A stretch of DNA of 64,000 nucleotides from a virus (IMGVR_UViG_3300030012_002828:29844-93843); one strand, 5' to 3'. Shown: positions 47,701 through 62,710, counted from the stretch's first letter. Notes: generated by a model not told the origin, from the letters alone. Program-made: numbers and translations.

Positions 47701-47884
47701 ATCCTAATTGTTCCTGTCTTTCTTTTCCACAGTCGAAAGGATTAGAGTGAATTTGACCACTAATCCTCGAATTTATTATTTTGATATTTGGCTCACCTTC
47801 TTTAATTAGTTTACCACATAATCTACATTTTGCATTTCCTGTTCCTACACTTAATATCCATTCTGTCATCATATACACATCCAT
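47675..47884 (-). CDS. Small PARP-type-like Zn-finger protein
   Basis: 'GNAKCRLCGKLIKEGE...H...C'. Confidence 0.55.
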   Translation of the reverse strand: MDVYMMTEWILSVGTGNAKCRLCGKLIKEGEPNIKIINSRISGQIHSNPFDCGKERQEQLGFEYEEEGE

Positions 47885-48660: not shown

Positions 48661-49218
48661 TCACCCATTAATCTTAAAGTGTTTTTCTACATGGTCGCCT
48701 GTAAAATATCTTTGCATCCATTGAGCACCATAACCTGCAATTACAACTTGCATAAAATTAACACCTTCAGGTTTTCCTTCCCAAGTATCTCCTTGACAAC
48801 TAAAAGAACCATCTGGGCCACTTGTAAATACAGTATATAATTTTGGGTCTTCTAAATGTGAAATCATAGCAGCGTTTCTTGCTTGTGCTCTTAAATCTAA
48901 CCATTTAATATCTGAATTATACATTGTTCTTCTAATATCTAAATTATCAGCACAACATACAACTAAATCATATCCTTTTAATTGTTTAGCAGTTAGTACT
49001 GGATAAGGATTAGCATGAACATTATATCTTTCATCCATTACATCAACCTTTTTCTTTTCAATATCTTCTTTAGTAAAGTTTTGATATGTGATATTCTTTT
49101 CCTCAACTATGTCAGGGTCATATACAGTAATATCATATATTCCTACTTTATCTAATAGTGGTATTAAAAAACTTCCAATTCCACCTGCGCCTATTATCAA
49201 TACATTTCTATTTTTCAT
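48661..49218 (-). CDS. ThiF/MoeB/E1-like Ubl-activating enzyme
   Basis: IIGAGGIGS, DPDIVEEKNI.YQ, K.K, CCADN..R and a candidate catalytic Cys in 'SCQ'. Confidence 0.9.
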   Translation of the reverse strand: MKNRNVLIIGAGGIGSFLIPLLDKVGIYDITVYDPDIVEEKNITYQNFTKEDIEKKKVDVMDERYNVHANPYPVLTAKQLKGYDLVVCCADNLDIRRTMYNSDIKWLDLRAQARNAAMISHLEDPKLYTVFTSGPDGSFSCQGDTWEGKPEGVNFMQVVIAGYGAQWMQRYFTGDHVEKHFKING

Positions 49219-56558: not shown

Positions 56559-56783
56559 TTAGAATCCGTCATCGAAGTCTTCACAACCACCAACAATTGC
56601 TTGAGCCAATACGACTTCATCAACCGCATTAAAATCAATGTTAGCAATTTCTTCTCTTGTAACCAATTCTCCATCAACATAAGCCCAATGGGTAGGATGG
56701 TCAATTATTTGGTCAAGTGCTTCACTTGCACTTAGAGTTAGTTCTGTGTGTCCTGTTTCATTCAATATTGTTATTTTTACCAT
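56559..56783 (-). CDS. Ubiquitin-like (ThiS/MoaD/SAMP beta-grasp) protein precursor
   Basis: MVKITIL..., 'AYVDGELV', 'DEVVLAQAIVGG' plus extension CEDFDDGF; strong SD AGGAAGTGA. Confidence 0.75.
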   Translation of the reverse strand: MVKITILNETGHTELTLSASEALDQIIDHPTHWAYVDGELVTREEIANIDFNAVDEVVLAQAIVGGCEDFDDGF

Positions 56784-58675: not shown

Positions 58676-59052
58676 TTATCTAATACAAAATGACTTAGTT
58701 CTATTAACAGAATAAAGATGAAGTAGAATAATGAATTATAAATATATTCAACCTATTAGATATAGTTTATATATTGTCTTGGTTATTGTTACATAAATAA
58801 AGCAAAACATTTGAAATATTTTTGATACTATCGAGTAAAAATCGACGCACAATCCGACCCCGACCCACTTATAAGGGGTAGCCCTCTCCTGCTGACCCTG
58901 CCATATGAAGATGTAGAACAATATCCATAAGTTTTACAACCATATGGTTACTAATAATAATCAATTATAATAGCGATTCTTTGAAAAAGCGTAAGAAACC
59001 CCGAAGGGTGGTGAATTTTACGCAGATTCACCAAAAACTGCCGTGATTCTAA

Positions 59053-59073
59053 TCACTCATCATCATCAAACAT
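59053..59073 (-). CDS. Micro-ORF MFDDDE*
   Basis: ATG TTT GAT GAT GAT GAG TGA; GAGGTG SD; TAATG overlap with the upstream gene. Confidence 0.55.
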   Translation of the reverse strand: MFDDDE

Positions 59074-59555
59074 TACTCGACACCTCTTTTTGGGATTTGG
59101 GATTGGTCACGCCATAGTGAACCATTGTCTTTGGCTTGCATAGTCCAATTTTTGATATTTTTCTCATTCATTCTAACAGCGTATGATTTACCGCTTGCAT
59201 CAATGTATTCCTTACCCTTAACTTTGAAAGTGGGCTTGATAGGTAGAGCATTCCAATATTTTTCGTTCATAGAATCCATTGAATCAGCGTCTTTCTTAAT
59301 TTGCTTAGTAGTTTCGTCATCAAGTTTCTTCAAAGGCCAACCTTCAAAATTCATTTTATGCCATTCCGAATACAGGGTATCAAAAGAAGTTAGTCTATGC
59401 TTAGCAAATTTTCGACCTCTATTGATAGTATTTTGAGTATATTCATAGGTATCAATATCCTCTTCTGTTTCCGCAGGGTTCTCTTTCATATAGGCTTCAA
59501 GAGGTGCTACGAATAATTCGTAACCCTCGTCTGTTTCGTATTTGTTTTTACTCAT
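59073..59555 (-). CDS. Hypothetical protein, paralogue of the divergent 59712-60347 gene
   Basis: Start ATG59555; shared TDE..., I.RG, WP and WN..PI motifs. Confidence 0.65.
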   Translation of the reverse strand: MSKNKYETDEGYELFVAPLEAYMKENPAETEEDIDTYEYTQNTINRGRKFAKHRLTSFDTLYSEWHKMNFEGWPLKKLDDETTKQIKKDADSMDSMNEKYWNALPIKPTFKVKGKEYIDASGKSYAVRMNEKNIKNWTMQAKDNGSLWRDQSQIPKRGVE

Positions 59556-59711
59556 GGTTATTACCACATAATAACATTAGTTTACAGGTATAGGGTATTC
59601 CCCAAAGATGCAACCATATGGTAATACTTTGAATTACCCTGAATAATAATAAATCCTAAGATTATGTGCTGTGAAAAAATATACAGCGCAAAAAACATAG
59701 GAGAAATAATT

Positions 59712-60347
59712 ATGGCTAAGAAAACAGAAAAGAAAGAAAAAGATTTGTCAATGACTGACGAAGCATGGAATAAAAGAGTAGGTAGAATTGAAGAATTCTT
59801 ATCCCATGAAGGGAATCAAGAATTTCTAAATTCTTCCGATGATATTATTGATGCTGTCGAATTGATACAAATGAATATCCGTAGAGGAAACAGAAATGCT
59901 ACAAAGCGGAAGAATTTGTGGAATCAAATTTTGATTGAAGGTAGAGATTGGACAACAGAAAAGCAAGAATTACTTGCTATTGATTGGCCTGTTGCTGTCG
60001 GAAAAGAATCAAATTTGCCTGCTCACGCTCAAGCAAGTTTGAAAGAAATGAAGAAATTGGTTCAAGAAGCATACGCAGAATTTTGGAATTCAAATCCAAT
60101 TATTCAAATGACATCTGTTATTTCTGATAGAAATAAACAATTAGGTGGTTCACCATTTGAAAATGGTTTAGAATTTGGCGAAGGTCGAGGTGTAGCAGTA
60201 AATCAAAGATTTGTGAAATATTTCACCGATGGTAGATGGGATGGAAATTTCAATCTTGAAGACGGATTTGCTATTAAACCACCACTACCTGTTGAAAATG
60301 CAACATCAGAAGAAAAAACCGATGAAGGTGAATCTGATGATTCGTGA
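59712..60347 (+). CDS. Hypothetical protein, paralogue of 59073-59555
   Basis: Start MAKKTE after AGGAG; track start 59664. Confidence 0.65.
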   Translation: MAKKTEKKEKDLSMTDEAWNKRVGRIEEFLSHEGNQEFLNSSDDIIDAVELIQMNIRRGNRNATKRKNLWNQILIEGRDWTTEKQELLAIDWPVAVGKESNLPAHAQASLKEMKKLVQEAYAEFWNSNPIIQMTSVISDRNKQLGGSPFENGLEFGEGRGVAVNQRFVKYFTDGRWDGNFNLEDGFAIKPPLPVENATSEEKTDEGESDDS

Positions 60348-60680
60348 GGATGAAGATTAATTCCCCGCCCAGTTTTGAGCAAAACTAACCCAAAAATTGC
60401 TTCAGTTAGATTTCTGTAAAAAATCACCCATGAAGAGTTTGTAAACTTAAATCATCAGGCTGTTTTTCGTTTTTCATCAATCGCAAGTGTTCATCAATTG
60501 CAAGTGTCAATACCTCCGGCATTAAAAAAATCTGAAAAGATTTTCTCTTCACCTTTTTTATATTTATTTTATTTTATTTTTTTTATTTTTTTTAGGGTTG
60601 TTCAAAGTACAACCATATGGTAAGGCTACTTTGAAGCACGAACCATAAATCTGCTCAAATAAGATTATGCGGTAATTATT

Positions 60681-60890
60681 ATGCCTTTTTGGAAAAAGAA
60701 TATTGAAGAAGAAAAAAGCGAGCCTGTGCAAAAGAATTTTGTGGTCAAACTAAAACAAGACCGTTATAAAAATTGGATTTGTGAATCTGCAAGGGTTCAA
60801 GGTGATACAATTGATGAAGTGAAAGAAAACATGGAAGCACTAATTCAAGCGGTAATTGAGAAAACAAATGAAGTAAATGGAGATGAATAA
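60681..60890 (+). CDS. Hypothetical protein
   Basis: First ORF of a small + strand operon. Confidence 0.6.
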   Translation: MPFWKKNIEEEKSEPVQKNFVVKLKQDRYKNWICESARVQGDTIDEVKENMEALIQAVIEKTNEVNGDE

Positions 60891-61119
60891 AATGGATAAA
60901 TACGATGAAGTAAAAGAAACAATAGAGCAAATAACAAGAGAACAGAAAAAAGTATATGAGGATTATTTTGATAATCAAATTAGAAAGTGGGTTTGGTATT
61001 GTTGTGGCGAAGGCTGCGTTAATATTACAGTTTCTAACCCACAAGACTCGGTTATTTTTGTAGATGCTGTAAGATATTTAGATTCAAATTGTAAAATGTT
61101 AGGTGAGAAAAATGAGTAA
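60877..61119 (+). CDS. Hypothetical protein
   Basis: Coupled ORF. Confidence 0.55.
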   Translation: MEMNKMDKYDEVKETIEQITREQKKVYEDYFDNQIRKWVWYCCGEGCVNITVSNPQDSVIFVDAVRYLDSNCKMLGEKNE

Positions 61120-61249
61120 AGTATTGGAAGAAGCACTAAGTAAAAGTCTTGAAATGTTAAAAATTGAAGAAAACCTTGCTTATCATAGATGGTTGAGAGC
61201 AAAACAAATGGTTGAATTGAAAAAATTGTTAGAGAGTGAGGAAGAATGA
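61112..61249 (+). CDS. 45-aa hypothetical protein
   Basis: MSKVLEEALSK...ESEEE*; GGTGA SD; coupled at both ends. Confidence 0.55.
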   Translation: MSKVLEEALSKSLEMLKIEENLAYHRWLRAKQMVELKKLLESEEE

Positions 61250-61431
61250 AACACGATAAAAATAAACTGATTGCCATAATTCAAGAAATATGTGCGATAA
61301 TTTATTATCAGCAAGCATTGAAAAAACAAGATGAATGGTTAAATGCAAGAATAAAAGATGGATTGTGGAATTTAGAATTATGTGAAGATGAAGAATATGA
61401 AAATGGGTTTGTTATGGAGGGTGAAGAATGA
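61246..61431 (+). CDS. Hypothetical protein
   Basis: Coupled ORF. Confidence 0.55.
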   Translation: MKHDKNKLIAIIQEICAIIYYQQALKKQDEWLNARIKDGLWNLELCEDEEYENGFVMEGEE

Positions 61432-61616
61432 CTGTTTTTCAAAAAAGACATTATACTGCTATCGCTTTGATGCTTGCTAAATTAGATGTTGAAAATTTAA
61501 CTAAAAAAGACATCGTAGAAAAGATGTGCGAGTATTTCAAGGCTGATAATGATAAATTCGACGAAACGAAATTTAGATATGCAATAAAGGCATTTGCTTT
61601 AGATTATATTCTTTAG
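61428..61616 (+). CDS. Hypothetical protein
   Basis: Coupled ORF with GGAGGGTGA SD. Confidence 0.6.
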   Translation: MTVFQKRHYTAIALMLAKLDVENLTKKDIVEKMCEYFKADNDKFDETKFRYAIKAFALDYIL

Positions 61617-61705
61617 TGATTACCCATCAGGTTTTTTCGGTATTTTTTCCTTAAAAAATAAATACCATTTTTTTATTTTTAAAAAATCTAAGGTAACTGC
61701 AAAGC

Positions 61706-62008
61706 GTTACCATATGGTAACAGATAATAATGTTCTTAACTTAATCACTCATCATCGTCAAAGAACATACTGTTCACCCTCCTGCGGTTCATAATATGCT
61801 AACGCATGAACCATATGGTAATATGTTTGGTAATAATACTAATCACTCGTCATCGTCAAACATTTAATTACCTCCCCTGTGGTGTCCATAGTCTACTATC
61901 GTGGACAACCATATGGTAATAAGAAAATAAACTAACATCACTCACAATCATCAAACATTCTTATTATCCCTCCTGCGGTAGAATATGCTTTCGCCTACCA
62001 TATGGTAA
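61706..62008 (-). repeat. Tandem array of three ~100-bp units (palindrome - hairpin - SD - micro-ORF)
   Basis: Palindromes spaced 101, 98 and 89 bp; micro-ORFs 61745-61768 MFFDDDE*, 61843-61863 MFDDDE*, 61938-61958 MFDDCE*. Confidence 0.8.
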
Positions 62009-62096
62009 GTAAAAATTGTAGATTTGCGAAAATACGCACCCTAAAAAAAGCAAGAATCAGGACTCCGAAAAGCCCTAATTCCTGCAATTCCACCAA

Positions 62097-62303
62097 TCAT
62101 TCATACATTCTTTCTTCGTTCTCCCTTAGTCTGTTTTCATTCTTTAGACTCATTGAAACGCCTTTCCAATTTTTCTTCATTCTTAATTGGACACCCGCTT
62201 GTCGAACATTAATTGATATGTCATCAAACTGTTGAAATTGGTCATCCACATTCATTAGTGCTGAAATCATCGCATCAAATGTTAATTTACTAAAGTCCTT
62301 CAT
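62097..62303 (-). CDS. Hypothetical protein
   Basis: ATGA overlap with the upstream 13-aa ORF. Confidence 0.55.
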   Translation of the reverse strand: MKDFSKLTFDAMISALMNVDDQFQQFDDISINVRQAGVQLRMKKNWKGVSMSLKNENRLRENEERMYE

Positions 62304-62341
62304 TCGTCATCATCCCTCATTACTATTGGTTTATTCATCAT
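62300..62341 (-). CDS. Micro-ORF MMNKPIVMRDDDE*
   Basis: Same DDDE* ending as the array peptides; preceded by the ATTATGTGGTAAT motif. Confidence 0.4.
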   Translation of the reverse strand: MMNKPIVMRDDDE

Positions 62342-62710
62342 AATTACCACATAATACCATATTTTTCTATATCTAAGGATTACCCCAAAGATATATCCAT
62401 ATGGTTCTATACTTAGGTTCATTCGTCATCATCTCTTATGGCGGAGGGTTCTTTTTATACTCTCTATTCATTCTTCAATCCATATGGTTCTACTTTGAAG
62501 GTTCCTAAAATTAATTTAATTGATTTTAATTCTTTTCTGTGGCAGATGCTAAATGCACCCTCCGCATAAAAACGGGTTTCTCCTATCATAAAATACACTT
62601 TTTAGCACATTATGTTAAAGTAAAATCGCATATCCTACAAAATGGTACAAATAATGCAATACATACAGTTATAACCCTTTACTTATCCTACTTATTCTGA
62701 GGATAACCAC

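What the first reader, a model, noticed from the sequence alone, without database searches (positions are those of the whole stretch)
61706..62008. Tandem array of hairpin + SD + hexapeptide minigenes (MFDDDE*)
Seen on the minus strand, each ~100-nt unit reads: TTACCATATGGT palindrome, then a stem-loop closed by GGT...ACC whose sequence varies while pairing is kept (one has a GAAA tetraloop), then a strong SD (CCGCAGGAGGG or CAGGGGAGG), then ATG (TTC) TTT GAY GAT GAY/TGT GAG TGA. The peptides are MFFDDDE, MFDDDE and MFDDCE. Most differences between copies are synonymous GAT/GAC changes, which suggests selection on the peptide. Gene callers miss these ORFs. Inference: an amplified micropeptide or RNA cassette. 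Options include an acidic-aromatic mimic of protein-interaction tails, a signalling peptide, or a ribosome/peptidyl-tRNA sink like the lambda bar minigenes. I know of no description of this element.
Basis: partly seen in the sequence, partly recalled or inferred. Interest (0 to 1): 0.88.

Follow-up and report, generated by a model that had tools for sequence, protein, structure and literature searches.

The report
Viral minigenes for acidic micropeptides
An ocean archaeal virus carries a tandem set of tiny self-contained genes, each only six or seven codons long, that encode a hydrophobic-then-acidic peptide; related viruses keep the peptide, not just the DNA, and the same peptide also occurs as the tail, attached or detached, of one conserved viral protein family.

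Summary
On the minus strand, 62008-61706 contains three about 95-nt units and a fourth closing palindrome. Each unit has an ACCATATGGT palindrome, a covarying stem-loop, a near-perfect Shine-Dalgarno and a 6-7-codon ORF (MFDDCE, MFDDDE, MFFDDDE).

I found at least 30 such cassettes in 23 related contigs. The start (ATG/GTG/TTG), the Shine-Dalgarno, the frame and the stop are always kept. Changes are synonymous or Asp/Glu swaps. One genome encodes the same Ser-containing core with TCT in one copy and AGT in another.

G-U pairs place the hairpin in sense-strand RNA.

- **Link to a protein family:** all 27 examined genes of one helical family (window p227 and p160) either carry the same kind of mini-ORF on their stop codon or end in an acidic run themselves. 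A third of 124 family representatives have the fused tail.
- **Best reading (about 0.45):** translated cassettes that supply a detached acidic tail peptide, in excess, to the partner of that family.
- **Not shown:** transcription and translation of the array. The target is unknown.
- **Rivals:** a ribosome or peptidyl-tRNA sink, or a non-coding regulatory module.

I found no description of this element. The first-stage scan had already noted the palindrome family and the fourth minigene in this genome, and the palindrome family in one other genome.

The parts
61997..62008 (-). Palindrome 1 (TTACCATATGGT), upstream boundary of cassette 1
61977..61999 (-). Cassette 1 stem-loop: outer stem GGTAG/CTACC, inner GC-GAAA-GC, 3' bulge AUAUU
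61968..61976 (-). Cassette 1 Shine-Dalgarno (GCAGGAGGG), 9 nt before ATG
61938..61958 (-). Minigene 1, six codons plus TGA (Cys-containing type A)
61908..61919 (-). Palindrome 2
61881..61910 (-). Cassette 2 stem-loop (longer stem, different sequence, pairing kept)
61843..61863 (-). Minigene 2, MFDDDE plus TGA; SD at 61879-61871
61810..61821 (-). Palindrome 3
61786..61812 (-). Cassette 3 stem-loop (GGTTCAT/ATGAACC, inner GC-GUUA-GC)
61745..61768 (-). Minigene 3, seven codons plus TGA (type B, MFFDDDE); SD at 61785-61777
61692..61720 (-). Palindrome 4 with a canonical CTTTG stem-loop arm; closes the array, followed by T6 (61686-61681) and a bidirectional terminator hairpin
62043..62049 (-). T7 run after the hairpin of the upstream 68-aa gene: its terminator and possibly the TATA-like box of the cassette-1 promoter
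   Evidence: inference
59053..59073 (-). Fourth copy of the hexapeptide minigene, start overlapping the TAA of the 160-aa gene (TAATG)
   Evidence: conserved in L004 and L128
59073..59555 (-). p160, member of the helical protein family that always carries an acidic mini-ORF or tail
   Evidence: RNA contigs 59082-59565
59712..60347 (+). p227 (211 aa from the ATG at 59712), paralogue of p160
   Evidence: RNA contigs 59668-60461
60337..60360 (+). +1-frame acidic mini-ORF over the TGA stop of p227 (seven codons, ends Glu-Asp-Glu-Asp)
59613..59622 (.). Canonical bidirectional palindrome site between p160 and p227; RNA contig ends at 59565 (-) and 59668 (+), each the last G of ATTATGTG

Best explanation
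The array is a set of three self-contained expression cassettes for 6-7-residue micropeptides. Each peptide is Met, then one or two aromatic or hydrophobic residues, then a run of four acidic residues that usually ends in Glu. In one cassette type the run also holds a Cys.

How a cassette works:
- Shown: each cassette sits on one arm of the ACCATATGGT site, the virus lineage's own regulatory site.
- Inferred: transcription enters at or just upstream of the GG of the palindrome.
- Shown by covariation and G-U pairs: the RNA starts with a 5' stem-loop.
- Shown as sequence: a near-perfect Shine-Dalgarno lies 7-9 nt before the start codon.
- Inferred from comparative data: the mini-ORF is translated.

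What the peptide is: a free-standing copy of the acidic C-terminal tip of one conserved helical protein family (window p227 and p160). In that family the tip takes one of three forms:
- fused to the protein;
- encoded as a separate mini-ORF that overlaps the stop codon (ATGA, TGATG or TAATG);
- placed in the +1 frame directly on a TGA stop.

Most likely function (inferred): the free peptides occupy the site that binds this tail, on the family protein itself or on its partner. The tandem cassettes raise the dose beyond the one-to-one amount made by translational coupling. This would be a small trans-acting competitor or ligand.
For: Cassette structure is kept across relatives:
- I found 29 cassettes by structure and three more in loci reached through the protein, in 23 contigs. 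Every one keeps an SD-like purine block, a start codon, an open frame of 5-11 codons and a stop right after the acidic run.
- Among 29 ORFs (26 non-redundant cassettes plus 3 stop-coupled copies), starts are ATG 16, GTG 11, TTG at least 1. Stops are TGA 23 and TAA 5 (one of the 29 was mis-extracted in each tally).
- Length differences are always whole codons.

The variation follows the genetic code:
- At positions -2 to -4, 62 of 70 GAN codons are GAY. GAT and GAC are used about equally.
- The last codon is GAR in 24 of 26.

Selection acts on the amino acid:
- In L026 the coupled ORF and the cassette share the same Asp-Glu-Asp-Ser-Glu core, but Ser is TCT in one and AGT in the other.
- In L017 and in the window, the coupled and cassette copies differ only at synonymous sites.
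- A Cys (TGT or TGC) is kept in the type A cassette of seven genomes, at shifting positions.

The hairpin is an RNA structure on the sense strand:
- 91.7% of cells are paired, against 24-40% when partners are slid. Five pairs carry compensatory changes, and 0 of 500 shuffles reach the covariation score.
- About five genuine G-U pairs occur, against no genuine A-C pair.
- The hairpin and the SD are therefore in sense-strand RNA.

The cassette is self-contained: in L128 the single cassette is exactly inverted between two palindromes and is still intact.

Link to the protein family:
- 18 of 18 family genes in the first loci have an alternate-frame mini-ORF ending in hydrophobic residue, acidic run and stop, at their stop codon.
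- 6 of 9 loci found independently through the protein have one too. The 3 most distant instead have proteins ending in an acidic run.
- 44 of 124 full-length family representatives end with at least 3 of 4 acidic residues.
- An unrelated 158-aa protein next to the L014 array ends in the same motif.

Clustering: (GAN)3+stop occurs 14 times in the genome against 4.1 +/- 2.1 in shuffles, and 7 of them lie in 59053-62419.
Against: - No RNA, ribosome or peptide evidence exists for the array.
- A TATA-like box (ATAWT) in the hairpin loop lies 20-25 nt before the start codon. This is the same geometry as at the three sites where RNA contigs begin. A start at the ATG would leave the SD untranscribed.
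- In the window-like clade the ATG and the hydrophobic residues of the +1-frame mini-ORF could be by-products of Asp/Ser-rich codons in the main frame. There the tail might be added by +1 recoding instead of being made as a free peptide.
- A GAN-repeat nucleic-acid motif would give some of the same third-position freedom.
- The family protein has no recognisable fold or binding site.
- Binding of the peptide to anything is pure inference.
- Cassettes were found with patterns taken from the window, so the sample is one lineage.
Confidence: 0.45

Rival explanations
1. What matters is the act of translation, not the peptide. Very short ORFs with a strong SD and an acidic run straight after the start make ribosomes abort or stall. 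This would release peptidyl-tRNA (Asp/Glu), tie up ribosomes, tRNA or peptidyl-tRNA hydrolase, and damp or reprogramme host translation early in infection. It would be a natural, amplified counterpart of the lambda bar minigenes that also uses intrinsic ribosome destabilisation.
For: - The SDs here are the strongest in the region, the ORFs are 5-11 codons long, and the cassettes are tandemly amplified.
- Acidic runs in N-terminal regions abort translation in bacteria and eukaryotes, and the products are cleared by Pth2, the archaeal/eukaryotic type of hydrolase (PMC9718836).
- Toxic 3-8-codon minigenes act by tRNA sequestration (PMC2490762).
Against: - A sink does not need an aromatic second residue, a conserved Cys-containing cassette type beside a Cys-free type, a last residue that is Glu in 24 of 26, or the same Ser reached through two codon families.
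- It explains neither the fused acidic tails in the protein family nor the one-to-one coupling to those genes.
- The runs are only 3-5 residues. From my own recollection, the published cases use longer runs.
- The virus needs the same ribosomes.
Confidence: 0.2
2. The units are non-coding regulatory modules and the ORF is incidental. They would be extra arms of the palindrome-centred promoter/operator system, for example tandem promoters, a sink for the factor that binds the palindrome, or short regulatory RNAs. The GAN run would then be a nucleic-acid motif.
For: - The palindrome with stem-loop arms is a lineage-wide motif at divergent gene starts. In 56 arms, within-arm pairing is 103 Watson-Crick cells against 51 in shuffles.
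- RNA contigs begin about 52 nt from the palindrome centre and about 24 nt after a TATA-like box at three sites. The cassette loop box would put a start at the ATG.
- An abundant small RNA from a neighbouring palindrome (62403-62452) contains a degenerate, start-less copy of the acidic-codon block in antisense.
Against: - The sequence between start codon and acidic run varies in content and in length (0-4 codons) but never breaks the frame.
- Non-ATG starts, variable SD sequences at fixed spacing and a stop directly after the run are all unexplained by this reading.
- The Y/R partition of third positions follows the genetic code.
- The copies coupled to protein genes have no palindrome or hairpin, yet keep the same peptide.
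- Some clades have no UGAUGA-type motif at all.
Confidence: 0.15
3. An intracellular receptor-peptide signalling pair. The helical family proteins would be regulators that bind the palindrome. The micropeptides would be their ligands, and peptide build-up from the cassettes would time the switch between early and later expression. This is the logic of arbitrium/RRNPP, but without secretion.
For: - The peptide gene sits directly on the 3' end of the putative receptor gene, as in RRNPP pairs.
- The family genes are the first genes on canonical palindrome arms, and the cassettes sit on the same sites.
- Peptide type tracks protein clade and genome.
- The proteins are all-helical with a conserved basic motif.
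Against: - There is no evidence that the family binds DNA or peptide.
- No TPR or HTH fold was recognised.
- The fused-tail members would be permanently 'liganded'.
- This is a special case of the best explanation, not an independent one.
Confidence: 0.15

Closest known systems
Phage lambda bar minigenes (toxic minigenes)
   Same: A virus-borne, SD-led ORF of a few codons with no downstream cistron. Gene callers miss it.
   Different: As far as I recall, bar ORFs are two sense codons long, are not amplified as cassettes, and show no peptide-level conservation. Their effect is seen in Pth-defective hosts. Here the peptide sequence is conserved across diverged genomes and is tied to a protein family.
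mccA, the 21-bp heptapeptide gene of microcin C
   Same: One of the smallest known genes. It has an SD-led seven-codon ORF whose product, not its translation, is functional. RNA structure lies next to the ORF.
   Different: From my own knowledge, MccA always ends in Asn and lies in an operon with the E1-like MccB. Here the peptides end in Glu or Asp, and the only ThiF-family gene (48661-49218) lies about 12 kb away beside a ubiquitin-like gene.
polished rice / tarsal-less polycistronic micropeptide genes of insects
   Same: Several tandem mini-ORFs encode near-identical short peptides with a conserved core.
   Different: That system is eukaryotic, has 11-32 codons and one mRNA without SD or hairpin units, and its motif is unrelated. 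I cite it from my own knowledge.
RRNPP / arbitrium receptor-propeptide gene pairs
   Same: A small peptide gene lies immediately downstream of, or overlapping, the gene of an all-helical cytoplasmic protein. The arrangement occurs in viruses (PMC10075063).
   Different: Those propeptides are 30-60 aa, secreted and processed. Here the ORFs are 5-13 codons with no signal sequence, the host is archaeal, and the protein fold was not recognised as TPR.
Acidic C-terminal tails used as interaction or auto-inhibition modules (bacterial SSB tip, HMGB1 tail, EEVD tips of Hsp70/Hsp90)
   Same: A short acidic tip, with or without a hydrophobic residue, at the extreme C-terminus. It is fused in a third of the family here.
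   Different: In the known cases the tail is never encoded as a separate, amplified gene. The order here is hydrophobic first, then acidic, which is the reverse of the SSB tip. I cite these cases from my own knowledge.

Membership tests
Lambda bar-type toxic minigene | SD-led ORF of only a few codons, not followed by a coupled cistron | tested here: met
   5-11 codons, SD 5-10 nt upstream; the array ends in terminators
Lambda bar-type toxic minigene | Acts by peptidyl-tRNA drop-off and tRNA or Pth depletion | not testable with these tools
   Needs cell-free translation or genetics
Lambda bar-type toxic minigene | Peptide identity unimportant (only length, last codon and SD matter) | tested here: not met
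   Peptide-level conservation, code-shaped third positions, TCT versus AGT for Ser
Microcin C (mccA/mccB) | C-terminal Asn on the peptide | tested here: not met
   The last residue is Glu in 24 and Asp in 2 of 26 cassettes
Microcin C (mccA/mccB) | Adjacent E1-like adenylating enzyme gene | tested here: not met
   Neighbours have no Pfam match; the ThiF-family gene is about 12 kb away
RRNPP / arbitrium | Peptide gene next to the receptor gene | tested here: met
   Only for the coupled copies
RRNPP / arbitrium | Propeptide with export signal, processed outside the cell | tested here: not met
   The ORFs are 5-13 codons, which leaves no room for a signal peptide
RRNPP / arbitrium | TPR-type receptor fold | tested here: inconclusive
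   All-helical model, pLDDT 74. The best Foldseek E-value is above 1, and the best Z is 7.3 on a generic four-helix bundle
Leader peptide / attenuator uORF | Short ORF upstream of a regulated gene on the same transcript | tested here: not met
   After cassette 3 come palindrome 4, a T6 run, a terminator hairpin and a convergent gene
Intrinsic ribosome destabilisation sequence | Run of Asp/Glu within the first codons of an ORF | tested here: met
   Runs of 3-5 start at codon 3-6. The effect itself was not tested
Archaeal C/D box sRNA | C box RUGAUGA plus D box CUGA, and a k-turn | tested here: not met
   No CUGA in the units. Some clades lack UGAUGA. No Rfam match
Magrovirus (virus of Marine Group II archaea) | About 100-kb tailed-virus genome with family B polymerase, ATP-dependent ligase(s) and, in group B, ribonucleotide reductase | tested here: met
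   compared with PMC5434244. This is gene content only; no marker phylogeny was done

The most novel reading that the evidence does not exclude
A virus makes the acidic tail of a regulatory protein family as free hexa- and heptapeptides from amplified, independently expressed minigenes. These would be among the smallest functional protein-coding genes known. They would act as a diffusible intracellular ligand or competitor that times the infection programme of an uncultured, abundant ocean archaeon. In different relatives the same tail would be fused, split off by translational coupling, or possibly added by +1 recoding on a UGA stop.
Probability: 0.3. Interest if true: 0.9.

Novelty: categorically new. 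Interest (0 to 1): 0.82.

Why it matters
- If the peptides are made and act as proposed, genes of six codons can be conserved, amplified and mobile units of a viral genome. Every gene caller in use overlooks them.
- It would also show a new way to regulate a protein: by supplying its interaction tail in trans.
- The finding gives a first handle on gene regulation in magroviruses. These viruses infect one of the most abundant archaeal groups of the surface ocean, and neither virus nor host has been cultivated.
- Three things are directly testable: a defined promoter/operator motif, candidate start sites, and a peptide-protein family pair.
- Even the rival readings would be of interest to people who study translation. 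A natural, conserved minigene that exploits ribosome destabilisation has not been described.

Tried and rejected
Searches that gave nothing:
- DNA and protein searches against cultured phages gave nothing close. The polymerase reaches only 25% identity to haloviruses.
- Rfam gave no family at gathering score and only one chance-level row at E below 1. There are no tRNAs.
- Scanning 185,579 prokaryote genomes for SD plus the hexapeptide ORF found nothing. The plain ORF pattern in viral contigs found one relative and two unrelated protein ends.

Ideas rejected:
- C/D-box or k-turn RNA: see the membership test.
- 'Start plus Phe codon is really an initiator element TGTT': rejected, because several cassettes begin with other codons yet keep the frame.
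- 'Acidic tails are common in this virus': rejected. Only 8 of 157 ORFs have them, with no shared motif.
- The small RNA at 62403-62452 as an antisense regulator of the minigenes: its best predicted target is the start region of the 68-aa gene instead (z -6.0, against -0.9 to -3.4 for the minigenes).

Inconclusive results:
- Metatranscriptome contigs of one sample (two runs) leave 61409-62402 uncovered. Short, repeated RNAs are easily lost, so this says nothing about expression.
- The fold of p227 gave no significant match with Foldseek or VIA-align, and the ESM Atlas had no usable hit.
- Complex prediction was not used, because the peptides are far below its 30-residue minimum.

- Two single-protein locus searches found nothing.
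- The full family alignment was too diverged for a locus search.

Full report
**1. The observation**

Read on the minus strand, 62008-61706 holds three units of 89-101 nt and a closing palindrome. Each unit consists of:
- the palindrome TTACCATATGGT;
- a stem-loop whose outer stem begins with the GGT of the palindrome and ends in ACC;
- a purine block complementary to the 16S 3' end, 7-9 nt before an ATG;
- a six- or seven-codon ORF ending in TGA.

The palindrome and the ORF pattern are far above chance: 9 hits against 0.59 expected, and 5 against 0.00. All palindromes of the whole 93.8-kb virus record lie in a 3.2-kb stretch. Two further acidic mini-ORFs lie outside the given coordinates:
- 59073-59053, whose ATG overlaps the TAA of a 160-aa gene;
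- 60337-60360, in the +1 frame over the TGA of a 211-aa gene.

**2. The setting**

The window is the last 64 kb of a linear IMG/VR record.
- Its gene content fits the published description of magroviruses, the viruses of Marine Group II archaea (PMC5434244). It has a head protease, an SU10-type capsid protein, a family B polymerase, an ATP-dependent ligase and a ribonucleotide reductase.
- Earlier notes of this scan said the same. I did not build a marker tree.
- No cultured relative exists in the phage collection.
- The region 58.9-62.7 kb lies between the replication block and the contig end, and it holds only small genes.

**3. The palindrome is a lineage-wide regulatory site**

A scan for two palindromes 75-105 nt apart found a dozen related contigs with 6-12 copies each.
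- A typical site lies between divergent genes. On each side it has a stem-loop arm (GGT, three variable paired bases, a loop with CTTTG, then the paired bases and ACC), followed by a TTATA-like box.
- In 56 arms the three positions inside GGT/ACC are Watson-Crick paired in 103 cells, against 51 in shuffles.
- Metatranscriptome contigs from one sample end at 59565 (minus strand, two runs), 59668 (plus) and 60671 (plus).
- Each of these is the last G of an ATTATGYG element, about 52 nt from the palindrome centre and about 24 nt after the A/T box.
- Contigs cannot prove an RNA end. Still, the same motif position three times is a fair hint of archaeal-type promoters (TATA box, then initiator) placed beside a shared upstream site.
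- Oligo-T runs follow the genes, as expected for archaeal termination.

**4. The cassettes in relatives**

I used three unbiased handles: the palindrome pair, palindrome plus SD, and palindrome plus inner hairpin loop. These gave 29 cassettes. Three more came from loci reached through a neighbouring protein. Together they span 23 contigs, including a TARA Oceans contig and several other metagenome and IMG/VR contigs.
- Every cassette keeps the order palindrome, stem-loop, SD, start, short ORF, stop.
- The ORF is 5-11 codons long. It has Met, mostly Phe next (or Ile, Lys-Tyr, Tyr), sometimes one to three further residues, and then a run of mostly four Asp/Glu that can hold one Cys or Ser.
- Among 29 ORFs (26 non-redundant cassettes plus 3 coupled copies), starts are ATG 16, GTG 11, TTG at least 1. 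Stops are TGA 23 and TAA 5, and never TAG.
- The last sense codon is GAR in 24 of 26 cassettes. The three codons before it are GAY in 62 of 70 GAN codons, with GAT and GAC about equal. That partition is the degeneracy of the genetic code, which a nucleic-acid motif has no reason to follow.
- Two cassette types persist side by side in several genomes. Type A contains a Cys, coded by TGT or TGC at shifting positions. Type B has two Phe and no Cys.

The clearest single piece of evidence comes from L026. The mini-ORF coupled to the family gene and the free cassette encode the same Asp-Glu-Asp-Ser-Glu core with identical flanking codons, but Ser is TCT in one and AGT in the other. This cannot come from copying of DNA, and it points to selection on the amino acid.

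**5. The hairpin is RNA on the sense strand**

On an alignment of 26 cassettes:
- The nine-pair structure is 91.7% paired, against 24-40% when partners are slid by one to three columns.
- Five pairs have changes on both sides.
- No shuffle reaches the covariation score.

After setting aside cells that are misaligned by one column, about five genuine G-U pairs remain and no genuine A-C pair. G-U pairs on this strand would be A-C mismatches on the other. So the structure is selected in RNA of the minigene strand.

It follows that transcripts start at or upstream of the GGT and contain the SD. This agrees with the many GTG and TTG starts, which leaderless mRNAs would use poorly.

The inner part (GC, a GNNA loop, GC, then AUAWU) is conserved in sequence and occurs nowhere else in the window. 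It may be a protein-binding site.

A caveat remains. The AUAWU box lies 20-25 nt before the start codon, which is the promoter geometry of section 3, so an internal start at the ATG cannot be excluded for ATG-type cassettes.

**6. The cassette is modular**

- Copy number differs between relatives: three, two or one.
- In L128, the closest relative, the single cassette is exactly inverted between its two palindromes while the flanks are unchanged and the ORF is intact.
- The first cassette of an array is regularly preceded by a mirrored canonical arm with a T-rich box. This could fire inward through the palindrome.
- An abundant small RNA contig that begins at the first G after CCATAT of a neighbouring palindrome (62403) and stops before a conserved T5 shows that RNA does arise at that position in at least one site.

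**7. The link to a protein family**

The 160-aa and 211-aa proteins are distant paralogues. Their family has 145 clusters at 50% identity, and nearly all members are 150-220 aa.
- In all 18 family genes of the first loci, a short alternate-frame ORF lies on or just after the stop codon. It ends in a hydrophobic residue (Phe in 13), four or five acidic residues, and a stop. An SD-like block lies upstream.
- In p160 and in the distant clade the starts overlap the stop as TAATG, TGATG or ATGA. These are the usual signals of termination-reinitiation.
- In the window-like clade, 14 of 14 genes end in TGA, and four acidic codons begin at the second base of that stop. This fits either a separate start a few codons upstream or a prfB-like +1 shift.
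- Loci fetched through the protein alone repeat the pattern in six cases.
- In the three most distant cases there is no mini-ORF, but the protein itself ends in an acidic run.
- Among 124 full-length family representatives, 44 end with at least three acidic residues in the last four.

Fused in some genomes and split in others is the classic sign that two parts work together. Within a genome, the coupled peptide and the cassette peptides resemble each other (L026, L017, L007, the window). An unrelated 158-aa protein beside the L014 array ends in the same motif.

**8. What it most likely does**

I read the cassettes as genes for free copies of this tail. Coupling gives one peptide per protein, and the cassettes add an adjustable surplus.
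- The simplest function is competition for, or occupation of, the site that binds the tail. That site could be on the family protein (auto-inhibition or assembly) or on a host or viral partner.
- That the product matters, and not only its synthesis, follows from sections 4 and 7.
- The target is unknown. The family model is all-helical with a conserved basic motif and matches no solved fold above noise.
- I put translation of the cassettes at about 0.8, and the tail-in-trans function at about 0.45.

Rivals:
- A ribosome or peptidyl-tRNA sink that uses the known instability of ribosomes on N-terminal acidic runs (PMC9718836).
- A non-coding regulatory module.

Neither rival explains the amino-acid-level conservation or the fused tails.

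**9. Comparison and novelty**

- The element shares single features with lambda bar minigenes, mccA, insect polycistronic micropeptide genes and RRNPP peptide-receptor pairs. It fails a defining feature of each (see the membership test).
- Papers on magroviruses do not mention promoters, palindromes or small ORFs.
- I found no description of amplified minigenes that encode a detachable protein tail.

Noticed in passing
window 59565(-), 59668(+), 60671(+); motif also at 62346-62355(-), 47813-47822(-): Metatranscriptome contigs end exactly on the last G of ATTATGYG at three sites. Each is about 24 nt after an A/T box and about 52 nt from a palindrome centre. This is a candidate initiator element and promoter geometry for this virus lineage.
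   Followed up: partly
window 62403-62452: An abundant 50-nt RNA contig in two runs of one sample. Its reads join 62446 back to 62403 (period 44, through a 6-nt repeat), which suggests a circular RNA or template switching at a 5' end. It starts in a palindrome and stops before a conserved T5. It carries 16 nt complementary to the start region of the 68-aa gene (62303). The locus is conserved in L004, L128 and L014.
   Followed up: partly
L128 2140-2250, compared with window 61709-61821: The single cassette is exactly inverted between two palindromes while the flanks are unchanged. The palindromes may be recombination or inversion sites, and cassette orientation may vary within populations.
   Followed up: partly
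window 60345-60360 and 13 homologous gene ends (L004, L128, L014 x2, L130, L006 x2, L147-L149, L151-L153): The stop is always TGA, and four acidic codons start at its second base. This geometry resembles the +1 frameshift site of prfB, so it is a candidate recoding site.
   Followed up: partly
window 59091-59085 (minus strand): A canonical -1 slippery heptamer (C CCA AAA, in the zero frame) lies 9 nt before the stop of p160. The -1 frame runs into the hexapeptide ORF. It is not conserved in L004 or L128.
   Followed up: partly
window 58850-58925 (minus strand); L004 5860-5960: A G+C-rich conserved block downstream of the palindrome at 58939, in a 30% G+C genome. It may be a structured RNA.
   Followed up: no
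window 60424-60560 (minus strand); similar in L004, L006, L007, L017, L018: A conserved element begins AAAAAGGTG after a long A-rich tract on a palindrome arm. An RNA contig ends at 60552. A 17-nt tandem repeat lies at 60473-60507.
   Followed up: no
window 56559-56783 (minus strand): The ubiquitin-like protein ends in Gly-Gly followed by an eight-residue extension rich in Cys, Glu, Asp and Phe. Its composition resembles the minigene peptides. A link is possible but was not tested.
   Followed up: no
proteins P0067 (1844 aa) and P0107 (2886 aa): Two giant proteins contain six and four stretches that match the p227/p160 family profile.
   Followed up: no
window 62300-62320 (minus strand): Within the leader of the 68-aa gene, a short ORF ends in Arg, three Asp, Glu and a stop. 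The stop overlaps the gene's ATG (ATGA). It has no clear SD.
   Followed up: no
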